This document shows positions 27,001-39,000 of a DNA stretch of 64,000 nucleotides, one piece after another (within the stretch, counting starts at the first letter, position 1; each line of letters opens with the position of its first letter). The stretch lies in NCBI RefSeq assembly GCF_021869535.1, contig NW_026262740.1, forward strand, positions 124,001-188,000, in the 5' to 3' direction. The DNA comes from Mytilus californianus. Its lineage: Eukaryota. The position numbers were made by a program.

Positions 27001-30000
27001 GCCGATTTACTATATGGCTATATAGATATACACAATAAAGTGCAAATATGGTCAGTTTTGGTTGATGCGTAAAAATAATTTTGTTATATTAGTCAGCCTG
27101 AGGTATCAAAACTACTGAAATTTTCTTGCGAGACAATATTTTGAATAAAAAGAGGACATGCTGGCAAACTAGATTGATGGGGACAAATTTTTGTTGTCAT
27201 TGTGTTGCAATGTTGCTGTCATTTGTATAATGCAATCCATTCTGACATCAAAATATTGTTGATTTACTATGTGGCTATATAGATTATACAATCCATCCTG
27301 ACATCAAAATATTGCTGATTTACTATGCGGCTTTATAGATTTACATAATAAAGTTCAAATATGGTCAGATTTGGTTGATGCGTTAAAATATTTTTGTTAT
27401 ATGAGTCAGCATGAGTAATCAAAATTACTGAAATTTTGTTGCGAGACAATATTTTTAATAAAAAGAGGACAAAAATATTTCCAAAAATTTTAACCCTATA
27501 TAAATTAACAGATTGACACATTCCCCATTTCCATCCTCAATTTTATAATTAAGTGCAAATATGGTCAGTTTTTGTTGATGTGTTAAAATAATTTTGTTGT
27601 ACATGTACCAGTCAGCCTGAAGTATCAAAACTACAGATAATATATATATGTTCCTGAGACAGTAAAAAAACATGTTATATTGGAACCAGTCTGAGATGTG
27701 AAAACTACTGATTTTTTGTGATGATTCAATTATTTGAATAAAAAAAATACATGCATACTTGTACTGTTGATTGGTGCAGAAAAAGAAATATTATTAATAT
27801 TACGCTGGTCATAAGCATGATTAACTGTACATCAATATTGCTTTCAATTGTCATGATTATTTTATATGATCTAAGTACTATTCGTTTTTGGCATTGTTTG
27901 TCGATTTTATCTGAAAACCAAGTTTATAAGATTTACGCTACATTTTGAAACCGATAATACTAGCATTGTAACCAATTTCTTTTTTAATTTATAGATAGAC
28001 AGATCGCGGATAAATTTGCATTTCAAGCAAAGTTTTATGCGCACTTTATTTACAAATACATGCATATATATTTAATATGTATTGTTTATATAACCATCAT
28101 AGGCATGACCACGGAGGTTTTAATTTTATACATTAATTTACAATATTGTGATCAAAATTCGTTTTTTAAAACAAATAAATAATTTTGTAGTCGCACGCTT
28201 TCTTTGAAATTTAATTGCATTATGGGTAATTTCGGATCGTGAAGATAGAATGGTGTATGGTGTTATGTGTAAGGTGTATGGTGCAAAGGTGTAACGTGTA
28301 TGGTGTAATAGCACAAGGTGTATGGTGTAATGGTGTATGGTGTAAGTGGGAAGTTTACACCATCCAAGGACAGTATGAGTCCTTCAAGTTTAAAAGTTTC
28401 TTATTAACCATTATATTTAGGTCGAATGGAGGCAACTTCACAAATGGTCTGAGGTATTTAGTCGACTTGGCGTCTGAATTTAAGCTGCACTGGTAAGTAG
28501 ATCGACCCATATGTTACCATCTTGGTCTCCATACACGACAATGAATAACTGTGTATTTGAGCGGTTTCAACGTTTTTACGTGTACGTTAATTGTTCTATG
28601 GCTGACACAATGTGTTTGTTATCCAGCAAGTGATTCGGTGTATCAACCTATTCCAAATGATAGAAAAACAGTATTTTTCTTTGAAAAGGGAATGTTTCCA
28701 ATTCTGCATTCGATTCTTTAATATCTGACTTGTGTGTCTCGTGATGCATCACCAGCATCGAAAGAATAGTAAAAGATTAGATTGTATATCTTTTTCATGT
28801 TGTTTATTTCTGAAGATTTGTTGGGATAAGTGCAATTGCTAATACAAGTTTTAATCTCTGTCAGTTTTGTTAGTTGATGAGTGCTCTTCATTAAATTATT
28901 TTTCCTTTCAATTTGTAAATATTTCCAAAACATTCTCAAGAACCGACATCCCGAAGCGCTACCCGGGAATGAAGCTTAATAAAATATGCAAAATCAAATG
29001 CCGTTTGTTTTCATTTCCTGCAGGTATTTCATGATTCTCTATTGCTATTTCTGTATTCCAGTGAATTTTCAATTACTAATTTCGTTATCAATCAGTTATT
29101 GTAGTGTTATTTAAATAAAAAAAGAAAAGGTTGTTGTTCAATGCTACATCTGTGGGTACAAAATATGAAACGTTTGAGAGCATAGAAAACAAAAATAATT
29201 AAAACCTTCAACGGTACAATGTGAGCTCGCTTAAATTTCAAGCCGATATACATGTACCATTGTGCACGGTGAACAACTGACATATCAAAATTGGAAACTG
29301 GTAAATAAACAAAATAATCCGAATGGTGTCAATAAATATAAATTTGTCACGTTAAACGATCAATTAATTGAAAATAAAAATAAAAGTTTTCACTACCTAG
29401 TATCAGTGTCTGCTTGGTTTTAGACTCCGAATAATGGCTTTTGGCATCTTTATAAACAGAACGCAAATTAAATTCATAATATGTTTCAGGTAGCAGTTTT
29501 TGAAGTGTGTACAAGCGTCGTCCATTTTTCCCTACCACTACATCTTTAGAAGAGAAAGTCCTGACAGGCAGGTTATCTGTTCCTAGAGGAGGTCGATGAT
29601 CAAGCTCATACGATAAGCACTCGTCTTGGACATCAATAAACCATTCAATGGTTATTGAACAATCGGTGCATTCAACTATGTCAAATTTTCTAGGAGCTGT
29701 AATTGGATAAATGAAAATGTCATGAATCTACCTGGATGTCTTTTAGTTATTCAGAGAAAGAAGAGAATGAGCTAAGGCGGCTAATGCCATACAATTAGGC
29801 GAATAATACAGACAACGTCGTGTTCAATGACAAATTACAATCAAACAAACACATAATCTCCTTGAGGATAATCGGTTCCTACATGTATCGTGAAACAAGC
29901 TCAAAATCGTATACAGAGTGATTAATCATCACCAGAGGACAGATTGGCAAATATATCAGGTTTATTCTACATTATTACTAAAAGTTGTATTCGGTGATAT

Positions 30001-36000: not shown

Positions 36001-39000
36001 GCAAAACAATTGAGGGAAAAATACAGACAACGTCGTTATCAATGACAACTTACAAGCAAACAAACACACGTTCTCTTTAAGGATCATCGGTTCCTACATG
36101 TATTGTGAAACAAGCTTAAAATCGTATAAATAGTAATCATCAACCGAGCGCAGATTTATTCTAAATTATTACTAAAAGTTGTATTCGATGATATTACCGT
36201 AAGAAACATGAGGTCGAACTTCTGACACCGTCAAATTTGATATTATAGCGGTTATCTTGGGGTTAGTATCATTGATACATTATTTGCATTTGTTTGAATA
36301 ATTTTCTTTTTTTAATTCGTAAGTATTTCACAAATGCATTACTCTACAAGAAAGTCTCGAAATTAATAAAGTTACAGAACGCTCTCTTAAGAAGATTTAC
36401 GACATGATGTGGATTTCTAAATGCAAAGACATTATTTTCAATCATTTTGATTAAAAATATTGAAAATAAAATTGAGAATGGAAATGGGGAATGTGTCAGA
36501 GCAGTCAAGACTAAATTTAAAAGTCAAGACGGAGTCGAGACTGGGCGAGAATTTGTCGAGACCATATTCTGACTATGCCAAGATTATCAAGTACTGAATC
36601 AGACTTATTAAGTCAAGTCGAGACCAAAGTCGAGTACAGTTAATTACTGTCGAGATTATATCGAGTTTTGTCAAGTAAAATCAGTTTGTAGTGTAGGACA
36701 AGCGTAAAATCGTACAAATAGTGATAAAACACCTGATATCAGATTGGTACATGTAGCATGTCTTATTCTAAAAGATTATTAAAAATTGTAGTCGGTGATG
36801 TCACAGAAAAAAATGACGAACTTCTGGTACCGTCAAATGTGTATCAGTGACGCTCAGATCAAAATAGTTATAAAACCTAGCAAGTACAAAGTTAAGAGCA
36901 TTGAGAATCCAAAATTAAAAAAGTAGGACCAAATACGGCTAAGGTCATGTATGCCTCGGATAAGAAAATCCTTAGTATTTCGAAAATTCATACTTTTGTA
37001 AACAAGAAATTTATAAGAATGACCAAGTAATTGATATTAATGTCGACTCCGAAGTGCTGACTACTAAACGTTTAAAAAAATGAGTGGTTTAGATAAACTC
37101 ATCATATATACCAGGATTAGACTGAAGTGTAGAAACAATATGTACGAAGTAAAATCAAATAATAAAGTGGTCTAATGATAATGTTAAGGTTAATGATAAG
37201 TTTAACGACAGGGATCATGTTAAGTACAAGATAACGTGTAAGGATAAGGTTATGTATAAGGTTAAGGTTAGGTATAAGGTTGAGGGTAATGATAAGGATA
37301 AGGTTAAGTATAAGGTTGAGGGTAATGATAAGGATAAGGTTGAGGGTAATGATAAGGATAAGGTTAGGTATAAGGTTGAGGGTAATGATAAGGATAAGGT
37401 TAAGTATAAGGTTGAGGGTAATGATAAGGATAAGGTTAAGTATAAGGTTGAGGGTAATGATAAGGATAAGGTTAGGTATAAGGTTGAGGGTAATGATAAG
37501 GATAAGGTTAAGTATAAGGTTGAGGGTAATGATAAGGATAAGGTTAAGGGTAATGATAAGGATAAGGTTAGGTTTAAGGGTAATGATAATGATAAGGTTA
37601 AGTATAAGGTTGAGGGTAATGATAAGGATAAGTTTAAGTATAAGGTTAAAGGTAATGATAAGGATAAGGTTAGGTATAAAGTTGAGGGTAATGATAAGAA
37701 TAAGGATAAGGTTAAGTATAAGATTAAGGGTAATGATAAGGATTAGGTTAAGTAAAAGGTTAAAGGGATTGACAAGGATAAGGTTAAGTATAAGGTTGCG
37801 TCTGAGGATGAGGACAAGGATAAGTATAAAATTAGTTTTGAAGATAAAGAGAGGTGTAAAGAGTGAGTGTTGATTAACTTAAGATTATATATATTAATAT
37901 AGTAGCGGATAAGTTTATAGATTAGTATAAGTCATTGTATGAGGTTAAGATAGTATTTCAGACAAACAAATCATAAATACACAAGGACGAGTATGATAAC
38001 TCTTTAATATTCCATTTTCAATTCCTTTGCATTATCCTAAAATATAATCGTGTAAAATAAGATGCTTTCTATTTGCAAAAACATATTCATTTTGTTTGGA
38101 AGCAATGCATATCTGTATTGTGTAACGAGGACAAAAATGATTGGGTTGAGACTACTATGTAGAAACGATATGTACGAAGATAAATACAATAATACAGTCG
38201 ATTAAGGTTAATGATAAGTTTAACGGTAAAGATGAGGTTAAGTAAAGGTAACGTCTTAGGATAAGGTTACGTATAAGGTTAAGAGTAATGATAAGGATAA
38301 GTTTAAGTATAAGGTTATGGGTAATGATAAGGATAAGTTTAAGTATAAGGTTAAGGGTAATGATAAGGATAAGTTTAAGTATAAGATTAAGGGTATTGAT
38401 AAGGATAAATTTAAGTATGAGGTTGAGGGTAATGATAAGGATAAGTTTAAGTATAAGGTTAAGGGTAATGATAAGGATTAGGTTAAGTAAAAGGTTAAAG
38501 GGTTTGACAAGGATAAGGTTAAGTATAAGTTACGTCTGAGGACAAGGATAAGTATAAAATTAGTTTTGAAGATAAAGAGAGGTGTAAAGAGTGAGTGTTG
38601 ATAAACTTAAGATTATAGATATTAATATAGTAGCAGATAAGTCTATAGATTAGTATAAGTCATTGTATGAGGGTCAGATAGTATTTCAGACAAACAAATC
38701 ATAAATACACAAGGACGAGTATGATAACTCTTTAATATTCCATTTACAAAACCTTTGCATTATCTTAAAATATAGTCGTGTAAAATAAGATGCTTTCTAC
38801 TTGCAAAAACATATTCATTTTGTTGGGAAGCAACGCATATCTGTATTGTGTAACGAGGACAAAAATGATTGGGTTGAGATAACTATGTAGAAACGATATG
38901 TACGAAGTAAAATATAATAATACAGTCGTCTGATGATAAGATTAAGGTTAATGATAAGTTTAACGGTAAGGATGAGGTTAAGTACAAGGTAACGTCTAAG

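What the first reader, a model, noticed from the sequence alone, without database searches (positions are those of the whole stretch)
28370..36460. Tandem array of symmetric FN3 exon cassettes, two intact and two with stops
Seen: four ~1.93-kb units, each with a single phase 1-1 FN3-like exon (297-300 nt) and conserved splice signals. The two copies first in transcript order carry stops (2 and 1); the last two are open and differ at several residues (e.g. DCS/NCS, LDHRPPLGTD/LGDRPPGTE, VGK/EGE). Symmetric exons can be included, skipped or swapped without shifting the frame. No other exon of this gene was identified in the window. Inferred: an exon-duplication array that could give copy-number or splice variation in an FN3 protein, possibly immune-related, or a decaying remnant of one.
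Basis: partly seen in the sequence, partly recalled or inferred. Interest (0 to 1): 0.68.

Follow-up and report, generated by a model that had tools for sequence, protein, structure and literature searches.

The report
Orphan FN3 exon array in mussel
Four tandem copies of a single-exon fibronectin-III cassette from a mussel-only receptor-like gene family sit in this window without any partner exons and are half broken, so the array is real but fairly ordinary.

Summary
Window 28374-36466 holds four tandem units of about 1.9 kb, 88-94% identical. Each carries one minus-strand exon of 297-300 nt, flanked by AG|..|GT in phase 1-1. Three of the four translations pass Pfam's fn3 cut-off.

The window is a Mytilus genome, most likely M. 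californianus. The cassette belongs to a family found only in Mytilus among named records. Its predicted proteins string 1-7 such cassettes, always joined through Ala, in front of Roc-COR GTPase and/or NHL-like propeller modules. Often a signal peptide, Cys-rich ectodomain and membrane helix come first.

Here the array is an orphan:
- No family exon lies on its strand anywhere in the window.
- No protein model in the collection encodes it.
- The neighbouring plus-strand gene splices past it.

U4 evolves neutrally. U1-U3 diverged with dN/dS of 0.11-0.31. The best reading is a recently detached, decaying exon array. A live, exon-skipping gene is not excluded. It is a new member of a known kind, of modest interest.

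The parts
28374..36466 (-). Whole tandem array: four units of about 1.9 kb, each one FN3 cassette exon plus intron
   Evidence: Self-blastn gives 88-94% identity between units. Four-way MAFFT alignment. No unit-like DNA elsewhere in the window.
35612..35908 (-). Cassette U4, first in transcript order; 297 nt, phase 1-1, two in-frame stops; degenerate
   Evidence: Pfam fn3 scores 21.4 bits, below the cut-off, on the 77-residue piece between the stops. 6 of 35 family-conserved positions are changed. dN/dS against the other cassettes is 0.80-1.46.
33675..33971 (-). Cassette U3; 297 nt, phase 1-1, one stop (TAG at a family-invariant Gln codon), otherwise intact
   Evidence: Pfam fn3 31.4 bits. 1 of 35 conserved positions is changed, namely the stop. 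It differs from U2 at 8 of 297 nt.
31317..31613 (-). Cassette U2; 297 nt, phase 1-1, open; 'short' type (..PPGTE..)
   Evidence: Pfam fn3 29.8 bits. 94% identical to a cassette of M. edulis P0007 and 93% to M. coruscus P0002.
29397..29696 (-). Cassette U1, last in transcript order; 300 nt, phase 1-1, open; 'long' type with one extra codon (..PPLGTD..)
   Evidence: Pfam fn3 30.9 bits. Its nearest rows in the cassette tree are P0002cor_124 and P0007edu_601, at 94% identity.
32882..33308 (+). 427-nt SINE-like retroposon inserted in the intron of unit U3 after the duplications
   Evidence: It has a 14-nt target-site duplication and a simple-repeat tail. The sites in U1, U2 and U4 are empty. There are 20 other matches of at least 200 nt in the window at 73-99% identity. 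No Rfam or tRNA match.
31883..32032 (-). Best-conserved stretch of the unit (coordinates for U2), intronic, 270-420 nt upstream of the exon
   Evidence: 14 variable columns in 150, and 1 in 50 at 31933-31982, against about 45 in 300 for the exon. There is no unusual RNA fold: z = 0.17. Function unknown; it may be chance or gene conversion.

Best explanation
This is a genuine tandem exon-duplication array in a Mytilus genome, most likely M. californianus. A segment of about 1.9 kb, made of one FN3 cassette exon and its intron, was copied head to tail, probably by unequal crossing-over. The result is four cassettes on the minus strand.

The cassette is the repeat module of a Mytilus-restricted family of predicted proteins. 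In these proteins 1-7 cassettes are spliced in series, always through a G|CT Ala codon. They sit between an N-terminal module and a Roc-COR GTPase and/or an NHL-like beta-propeller. The N-terminal module is often a signal peptide, a Cys-rich ectodomain and a membrane helix, which would put the FN3 string on the cytoplasmic side. Because every module boundary checked is phase 1, cassettes can be added, lost or skipped without breaking the frame.

In this window the array has lost its gene. It lies between satellite blocks and points tail-to-tail at a plus-strand gene of the same module network. It has no partner exon on its own strand within 28 kb downstream or 27.5 kb upstream. U4 is dead and drifts neutrally, and U3 has just acquired a nonsense codon. 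U2 and U1 are still open.

U1-U3 diverged from each other under purifying selection. The array therefore worked as coding sequence for most of the time since its last duplications and is now, most likely, a recently detached and decaying remnant.

Shown here: the anatomy, the phases, the family membership of the cassette, the absence of recognisable partners, and the selection pattern. Inferred: the duplication mechanism, the detachment, and the present lack of function.
For: Array and phases:
- establish the units, exons and phases. Pfam fn3 is above the cut-off in 3 of 4 copies.

Family:
- All 27 of 27 hits in the word-indexed search, out of 54 candidates, are Mytilus: 12 edulis, 8 galloprovincialis, 5 coruscus and 2 californianus.
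- The exhaustive phmmer search gave 112 representatives at E <= 1e-3 and 47 at E <= 1e-10.
- I looked up 10 of the more distant full-length cassette hits. All 8 that carry a name are Mytilus.
- There are 1-7 cassettes per protein at a 99-100-residue period, and 29 of 29 internal junctions read Ala-Pro.
- Roc and/or COR-A appear among the precomputed domains of 14 of the 27. They were above the cut-off in 5 of the 10 proteins I scanned.
- A hydrophobic segment (Kyte-Doolittle mean >= 1.8 over 19 residues) ends just before the first cassette in 4 of 7 proteins examined.

Orphan status:
- tblastn of the 27 family proteins finds FN3 only at the four cassettes and finds no Roc or COR anywhere in the window.
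- A profile of the family's N-terminal ectodomain finds nothing in the six-frame ORFs; the best E is 0.77.
- The two propeller exons (5982-6063 with 8676-9416, and 21759-22549) and the N-terminal module exon (10680-10988) are all on the plus strand.
- M. californianus RefSeq protein LOC127713885 (P0136) matches the window at 99-100% identity. It joins the 10988 donor straight to the propeller exon that starts at 21759, with no FN3 between.
- No protein of 53-2000 residues in the collection encodes U2 or U1 exactly. The best hits are 94% in the 'longer' search and 57% in the 'near' search.

Decay:
- Two stops in U4 and one in U3.
- U4 has 6 of 35 family-conserved positions changed, against 1, 0 and 1 for U1, U2 and U3. 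U2 is the reference row, and U1 and U2 helped to define the set of positions.
- dN/dS involving U4 is 0.80-1.46.
- The total of 3 stops in four lineages matches the 2.1-2.7 expected under neutral change.

Past function:
- dN/dS is 0.22 (U1-U2), 0.31 (U1-U3) and 0.11 (U2-U3).
- On the three-branch tree about 10 of 22 changes are non-synonymous, against a neutral share of 0.775. This gives p = 0.001, or p = 0.014 if the neutral share is set to 0.70.
- The 'short' and 'long' cassette types are shared with M. coruscus, M. edulis and M. galloprovincialis proteins.
Against: - All four cassettes, the broken ones included, keep their AG and GT sites and the upstream pyrimidine tract. Nothing in the sequence forbids use with skipping of U4 and U3.
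- The constraint seen among U1-U3 could mean the gene is still alive.
- My search for partner exons only recognises modules already seen in the family or in Pfam. An unrelated or very short first or last exon would be missed.
- The absence of a protein model is indirect evidence. I could not see the genome's own annotation or any transcript data.
- The stop counts alone do not discriminate. The chance of no new stop in a neutral copy is 0.5-0.6.
- The selection tests rest on 7-23 differences per pair, and the pairs share branches.
- Low dN/dS could also be imported by gene conversion from working paralogues elsewhere.
Confidence: 0.6

Rival explanations
1. The array is a live part of an unannotated or mis-annotated gene on the minus strand. 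Transcripts skip the two broken cassettes, or these are polymorphic nulls. They include U2 and U1 and splice to first and last exons that I could not recognise or that lie outside the window. Cassette choice would give length variants of the protein.
For: - Splice signals are conserved at all four cassettes, and phase 1-1 makes skipping harmless.
- dN/dS is 0.11-0.31 among U1-U3.
- The U2-U3 exon is less diverged than the intron, p = 0.004.
- Relatives really do string such cassettes in variable numbers.
Against: - No start-bearing or downstream exon was found on the minus strand in 55 kb of flank, by family proteins, an N-terminal profile, leader peptides, or Pfam on the 20 other ORFs I submitted.
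- The cassettes hold no Met, so an upstream exon is compulsory.
- No protein model in the collection contains these cassettes, although the neighbouring gene's RefSeq protein from the same species is there.
- The flanks are satellite blocks.
Confidence: 0.24
2. The units were amplified neutrally as a macro-satellite after the fragment was already dead. The coding look is only inheritance from the ancestor.
For: - The array sits between other tandem arrays: a 257-nt satellite at 25375-27290 and complex minisatellites at 37.1-42.7 kb.
- Overall exon and intron divergences are similar in 4 of 6 pairs.
- The stop counts fit neutral expectation.
Against: - Differences that arose after the duplications are biased to synonymous sites among U1-U3, at p about 0.001-0.02.
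- The U2-U3 exon is 2.7% diverged against 7.0% for the intron.
- The short and long cassette types are shared across four species. At least that duplication is therefore old and was kept in working genes.
Confidence: 0.08
3. The detachment is an assembly or scaffolding error. In the real genome the array would lie on the plus strand between the phase-1 donor at 10988 and the phase-1 acceptor of the propeller exon that starts at 21759. That would make a gene like M. edulis P0007 or P0139 (N-terminal module, then FN3 cassettes).
For: - The donor at 10988, the cassettes and the propeller acceptor are all phase 1 and would join in frame.
- In M. edulis models P0007 and P0139, the exon homologous to 10680-10988 is followed directly by FN3 cassettes.
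Against: - There is no gap between the pieces. The only N run is at 52675-52775.
- A single inversion cannot produce the observed order N-module(+), propeller(+), array(-). This is my inference.
- The RefSeq model joins 10988 to the propeller exon directly.
- No cassette or unit remnant lies between 11 and 21.7 kb.
Confidence: 0.06

Closest known systems
Mytilus predicted proteins with the same cassette: M. californianus LOC127710406 (P0009), M. coruscus 'TN' A0A6J8DK38 (P0002), M. edulis 'TN' A0A8S3VKW6 (P0007). Names are as given by the sources; none is characterised.
   Same: - The cassette sequence is 57-94% identical.
- The period is the same 99-100 residues, with the same Ala junction.
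- The short and long cassette types are the same.
- The intron flanks are the same, as seen where models P0011 and P0016 read through into them.
   Different: Those models carry partner modules in cis: signal peptide, ectodomain, membrane helix, Roc, COR-A and a propeller, or an N-terminal module that sources call DZIP3-like HEPN. The window's array has none on its strand, and two of its four cassettes are broken.
Alternatively spliced single-exon FN3 repeats of tenascin-C and of fibronectin (EDA, EDB). Recalled textbook knowledge; no call.
   Same: One FN3 domain per exon in symmetric phase 1-1, in tandem, so that inclusion or skipping keeps the frame.
   Different: - No transcript evidence exists here.
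- The sequences are related only at the level of the fn3 profile, at 30 bits. The PDB sequence search gave only marginal hits, E 0.005-0.008.
- In the family's full-length models the cassettes follow a membrane helix and so would be cytoplasmic, not matrix domains. This is inferred.
ROCO proteins (Roc-COR GTPases such as LRRK2, DAPK1, MFHAS1). Recalled; Pfam Roc PF08477 and COR-A PF16095.
   Same: Full-length relatives of the cassette's family have Roc and COR-A above Pfam cut-offs, followed by a repeat propeller.
   Different: The window itself has no Roc or COR. An N-terminal ectodomain, membrane helix and FN3 string in front of Roc-COR was not described in the papers I searched. ROCO domains fused to TIR or TLR proteins are reported in Aplysia (PMC9334734, passages).
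Unprocessed pseudogene fragments and dispensable, hemizygous gene copies in Mytilus (presence-absence variation; PMC7653742 and PMC10514466, passages read)
   Same: A lineage-specific, recently duplicated gene piece in a repeat-rich region, part broken, of a family with immune-type modules.
   Different: Whether this region is hemizygous or variable between individuals was not testable here. Neither paper's main text mentions fibronectin ('fibronectin' 0 occurrences in each). Their supplements were not seen.

Membership tests
Pfam fn3 (PF00041), fibronectin type III domain | Score at or above the curated gathering cut-off of 25 bits | tested here: met
   U1 30.9, U2 29.8 and U3 31.4 bits. The U4 piece between its stops scores 21.4 bits, below the cut-off.
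Pfam fn3 (PF00041), fibronectin type III domain | Seven-stranded beta-sandwich fold | not tested
   Structure prediction accepted no jobs. The PDB sequence search gave only marginal hits: 9ot8_A at E 0.0048 and 7sz8_A at E 0.0082.
Mytilus FN3-cassette / Roc-COR / propeller family | Cassette sequence, length and junction codon as in family members | tested here: met
   57-94% identity to 27 Mytilus proteins. The window's cassettes fall in a 10-row clade with P0002, P0007, P0012 and P0016 cassettes, SH-aLRT 94. The G|CT junction equals the Ala seen at 29 of 29 junctions.
Mytilus FN3-cassette / Roc-COR / propeller family | Roc and COR-A exons downstream on the same strand | tested here: not met
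   tblastn with 27 family proteins at E up to 20 gives no Roc or COR match anywhere in the window.
Mytilus FN3-cassette / Roc-COR / propeller family | NHL-like propeller exon downstream on the same strand | tested here: not met
   Propeller exons occur only on the plus strand, at 5982-6063 with 8676-9416 and at 21759-22549.
Mytilus FN3-cassette / Roc-COR / propeller family | N-terminal module (signal peptide, Cys-rich ectodomain and membrane helix, or the module at P0007 355-500) upstream on the same strand | tested here: not met
   The ectodomain profile finds nothing in the six-frame ORFs; best E 0.77. Leader peptides matched nothing except one weak, off-target match of the P0013 leader inside the unit introns. 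The P0007-like module lies on the plus strand at 10680-10988.
Alternatively spliced cassette exons | Symmetric phase and intact splice sites | tested here: met
   Phase 1-1, with AG and GT at all four cassettes.
Alternatively spliced cassette exons | Transcripts with and without the exon | not testable with these tools
Pseudogene / decaying gene fragment | Disabling mutations and relaxed constraint | tested here: inconclusive
   Met for U4: 2 stops, dN/dS 0.80-1.46, 6 of 35 conserved positions changed. U3 has one stop only. It is not met for U1 and U2, where the frame is open and dN/dS is 0.22.

The most novel reading that the evidence does not exclude
The array is not dead. It would be a working, copy-number-variable and exon-skipping module, or a gene-conversion reservoir, for a Mytilus-only family of membrane-anchored FN3-Roc-COR-propeller proteins.

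This family exchanges phase-1 modules with proteins that sources name HEPN-, CARD-, caspase- and large-GTPase-bearing. That would make it an undescribed innate-immune-type receptor family, diversified by amplification and loss of a cytoplasmic FN3 cassette.
Probability: 0.12. Interest if true: 0.6.

Novelty: new member of a known kind. Interest (0 to 1): 0.3.

Why it matters
Taken alone, the array is a textbook case of phase 1-1 exon duplication caught half-way to decay. It is useful mainly as an annotation note: an unannotated FN3 pseudo-array in a mussel genome.

The wider interest is in the family it points to. Mussel genomes hold a lineage-restricted set of predicted proteins in which a variable string of near-identical FN3 cassettes links a membrane-anchored ectodomain, or other modules, to a Roc-COR GTPase and a propeller. 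All module borders checked are in the same phase.

That layout is what one expects of a fast-evolving, shuffling receptor repertoire. It fits reports of lineage-specific expansions and presence-absence variation in bivalves (PMC8195603 and PMC7653742, passages). Nobody appears to have described the family in the literature I could search. Loci like this one show the turnover (amplification, detachment, decay) that such a repertoire would leave behind.

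Tried and rejected
- **ORF 56962-57324 (-) as the family's N-terminal exon.** A weak tblastn hit (E 0.46) was not borne out by BLASTP (E 7) or by the N-terminal profile. Rejected.
- **Repeated ORFs of 79-110 codons on both strands at the unit borders as a second exon.** Examples are 30306-30593 (-) and 30429-30761 (+). Variable sites show no codon-position bias: 10, 7, 8 and 14, 12, 13. Rejected.
- **An intronic ORF 325-500 nt downstream of each cassette.** An example is 30813-30992 (-). 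It weakly resembles the leader and tail of model P0013 (E 0.002 in a small database). It is too weak to call an exon and is kept only as a note.
- **The conserved intron block as an RNA element.** There is no fold signal, z = 0.17, and four near-identical copies give no covariation. Left open.
- **Rfam and tRNA scans of the whole window.** Nothing found.
- **Pfam on 20 other ORFs of the window.** Only the two propeller exons gave credible hits.
- **Structure prediction of the cassette.** The tool accepted no jobs, so the fold and the placement of the variable residues on it stay unchecked.
- **Collections not available.** Synteny, copy number in other individuals and the orthologous arrays of P0002 and P0007 stay unchecked.
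- **Supplements.** The supplements of the presence-absence papers, which hold the lists of enriched domains, were not seen.

Full report
**What is there**

The window is AT-rich (about 33% G+C) and eukaryotic in layout. Self-comparison shows a head-to-tail array from 28374 to 36466, made of four units of 1874-1951 nt that are 88-94% identical. Unit U3 is 427 nt longer because of an insertion at 32882-33308. No unit-like DNA occurs anywhere else in the window.

Each unit holds one exon on the minus strand:

| Cassette (transcript order) | Coordinates | Length | In-frame stops |
|---|---|---|---|
| U4 | 35612-35908 | 297 nt | 2 |
| U3 | 33675-33971 | 297 nt | 1 |
| U2 | 31317-31613 | 297 nt | 0 |
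| U1 | 29397-29696 | 300 nt | 0 |

All four are preceded by ..ACAG and followed by GTAGTG. All four begin with the last two bases of a codon and end with the first base of the next, which is phase 1-1. Pfam fn3 scores are 30.9, 29.8 and 31.4 bits for U1-U3 against a cut-off of 25. The piece of U4 between its stops scores 21.4 bits.

**Whose exon it is**

I searched one cassette on its own (U2, 98 residues).

- The word-indexed search for longer proteins gave 27 hits among 54 candidates, all from Mytilus: 12 M. edulis, 8 M. galloprovincialis, 5 M. coruscus and 2 M. californianus. Identity ran up to 94%.
- An exhaustive phmmer search of 1.84 billion representatives gave 112 hits at E <= 1e-3 and 47 at E <= 1e-10.
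- I looked up ten of the more distant hits that cover the whole cassette (35-60% identity). The eight that carry a name are all Mytilus. Two come from unnamed contigs and were left alone.
- A sequence search of the PDB gave only marginal matches, so the cassette is a divergent FN3.

**The family's build**

A profile of the four cassettes finds 1-7 copies per family protein at a strict period of 99-100 residues. All 29 internal junctions read Ala-Pro. That is exactly the codon G|CT which the window's donor and acceptor would make.

The last cassette is followed by one of three things:
- a Roc P-loop exon, in 13 proteins;
- the propeller exon, in P0015 and P0027, or the propeller sequence directly, in P0002;
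- read-through into intron sequence that matches the window's own intron, in P0011, with short read-through tails also in P0014, P0016 and P0022.

Pfam on ten members shows fn3, Roc, COR-A and an NHL-like or Mal-s-1-like propeller. Roc and/or COR-A is among the precomputed domains of 14 of the 27.

Four of seven members examined have a strongly hydrophobic segment that ends a few residues before the first cassette. Upstream of it lies a Cys-rich region of about 200 residues and a hydrophobic N-terminus. I read the N-terminus as a signal peptide by eye, with no tool. In those models the FN3 string would be cytoplasmic, lying between the membrane and the GTPase.

In a tree of 45 full cassettes plus the four from the window, repeats of one protein mostly cluster together, for example the six of P0001 (partial cassettes were left out). 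Local amplification is therefore recurrent in the family.

The window's cassettes fall in a clade (SH-aLRT 94) with cassettes of P0002, P0007, P0012 and P0016. U1 has the one-residue-longer 'long' form (PPxGTD) that also occurs in P0002, P0007 and P0016. U2 and U3 have the 'short' form (PPGTE) that also occurs in P0002. The two forms therefore predate the split of these species.

**The surroundings**

Family modules do occur in the window, but on the other strand.

- Propeller terminal exons lie at 21759-22549 (+). A second one, 5982-6063 with 8676-9416 (+), is split by a 2.6-kb insertion with 46-nt terminal inverted repeats.
- An exon at 10680-10988 (+) is 92-99% identical to an N-terminal module. 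Sources place that module in proteins they name DZIP3-like HEPN, CARD, caspase p20 and very-large-GTPase-like, and also in front of FN3 cassettes in P0007 and P0139.
- Its donor is phase 1, and so is the acceptor of the propeller exon.
- The RefSeq protein of M. californianus LOC127713885 (P0136, 301 residues) matches the window at 99-100% identity. It joins those two exons directly, reading ..VPDRS-E-NEPNKEE...

This places the window in M. californianus or something very close to it. It also shows that the plus-strand gene does without FN3.

On the minus strand I found no partner for the array:
- no Roc, COR or propeller, with tblastn at E up to 20;
- no ectodomain, with the profile's best E at 0.77;
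- no leader exon (the only hits fell inside the units' own introns or were E > 1);
- nothing in Pfam for the 20 other ORFs I submitted.

The array is boxed in by a 257-nt satellite on one side and complex minisatellites on the other. No protein model of 53-2000 residues in the collection encodes U1 or U2 exactly, although the neighbouring gene's RefSeq protein is there.

**Selection**

Outside the exon the units differ by 7.0-9.6%. The exons differ by 2.7-8.8%. Only U2-U3 is significantly lower (8/297 against 111/1584, p = 0.004).

Splitting the exon changes by type is more telling:

| Pair | dN/dS | Non-synonymous of all differences | One-sided p |
|---|---|---|---|
| U1-U2 | 0.22 | 9 of 20 | 0.0016 |
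| U1-U3 | 0.31 | 10 of 18 | 0.033 |
| U2-U3 | 0.11 | 2 of 7 | 0.008 |
| pairs with U4 | 0.80-1.46 | 17-18 of 21-23 | 0.4-0.9 |

The neutral share of non-synonymous change is 0.775. Differences were rounded to whole numbers for the test. The pairs share branches. On the three-branch tree about 10 of 22 changes are non-synonymous, giving p = 0.001, or p = 0.014 if the neutral share is lowered to 0.70 to allow for transition bias.

U4 has also changed 6 of 35 family-conserved positions, against 1, 0 and 1 in U1, U2 and U3. U2 is the reference row, and U1 and U2 helped to define the set of positions.

Against over-reading: a neutral copy would be expected to gain 0.5-0.7 stops over this divergence. 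The counts 0, 0, 1 and 2 therefore fit neutral decay as well, and the open frames of U1 and U2 are not evidence of selection in themselves.

**Reading**

The array is real. It was built by duplication of exon plus intron, and it belongs by sequence to a Mytilus-only cassette family. Its three younger-looking members were under protein-level constraint after they duplicated, so it was once part of a working gene.

Today it has no recognisable gene around it, half of its cassettes are disabled, and it is not represented by any protein model. I therefore take it for a recently detached, decaying array (confidence 0.6).

Three alternatives remain:
- a live gene that skips U4 and U3 (0.24);
- neutral satellite-like amplification of a dead piece (0.08);
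- an assembly error that hides a plus-strand gene of the P0007 type (0.06).

**Comparison with what is known**

Single-exon, phase 1-1 FN3 repeats that are duplicated in tandem and can be skipped are classical in tenascin-C, fibronectin and titin (recalled, no call). In that sense the finding is a new member of a known kind.

The family context is less familiar: a membrane-anchored ectodomain, an FN3 string, Roc-COR and a propeller, with module borders in one phase. Two literature searches found no paper on it (32 papers held at least 2 of 3 terms, 15 listed; 15 listed of 2,740). These searches were shallow and cover open-access text only.

Passages read in four papers give context:
- PMC9334734 reports ROCO domains fused to TIR and TLR proteins in Aplysia.
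- PMC8195603 describes lineage-specific expansions of receptor-like immune architectures in bivalves.
- PMC7653742 and PMC10514466 describe massive presence-absence variation in M. galloprovincialis. Neither mentions fibronectin in its main text. Their supplements were not seen.

For PMC9710001, the M. californianus genome paper, I saw only the search listing and the start of the abstract.

**Left unchecked**

- Transcripts and the genome's own annotation.
- Other Mytilus genomes at the DNA level (synteny, copy number, stop status).
- The cassette's fold, because the structure tool accepted no jobs.
- Anything about a joined, spliced product.

Noticed in passing
window 5982-9416 (+): A second NHL-like propeller terminal exon, 76-78% identical to family C-termini, is split after 6063. 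The split is caused by an insertion of about 2.6 kb with 46-nt terminal inverted repeats (6062-6107 and 8635-8680, 98% complementary). It is probably a DNA transposon. The exon resumes at about 8676.
   Followed up: partly
window 10436-10501, 10680-10988, 21759-22261 (+): These exons encode M. californianus RefSeq protein LOC127713885 (P0136) at 99-100% identity. An N-terminal module is spliced directly to a propeller exon through a phase-1 junction. This identifies the species. In other Mytilus proteins the same N-terminal module sits in front of FN3, CARD, caspase p20 or HEPN-named regions (names from sources).
   Followed up: yes
window 32882-33308 and 20 other places (e.g. 39294-39718, 42968-43390, 52776-53193): A SINE-like element of about 427 nt has 20 further matches of at least 200 nt, at 73-99% identity. 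Several are 99% identical, so it was recently active. The copy in U3 has a 14-nt target-site duplication and a simple-repeat tail. It has no Rfam or tRNA match. One copy abuts the N run at 52675-52775.
   Followed up: partly
window 25375-27290, continuing to about 27640: A 257-nt satellite of 7.4 copies at 88% identity lies immediately downstream of the array in transcript sense. A 15-nt repeat lies at 23974-24083 and a 106-nt repeat at 24451-24651.
   Followed up: no
window 37120-42700: A long G-skewed region built from TAAGGA-like hexamers is organised in 36-, 72-, 96- and 108-nt higher-order repeats and in larger blocks repeated at 78-88% identity. It gives spurious ORFs of 110-250 codons on both strands.
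   Followed up: no
window 30813-30992, 35119-35280, 28962-29072 (-): An intronic ORF 325-500 nt downstream of each cassette weakly resembles the leader and the post-cassette tail of M. edulis model P0013 (E 0.002 in a small database). The SINE in U3 landed inside this element. It may be a rarely used exon or an artefact of gene prediction.
   Followed up: partly
window 31883-32032 (-) and its copies in the other units: This intronic block is more conserved among the four units than the exon itself (14 variable columns in 150). There is no unusual RNA fold (z = 0.17).
   Followed up: partly
window 50088-51667 (+) and 54261-54775 (-): Several ORFs of 70-190 codons look coding by eye, possibly as transposon remnants. 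None has a Pfam match above the cut-off.
   Followed up: partly
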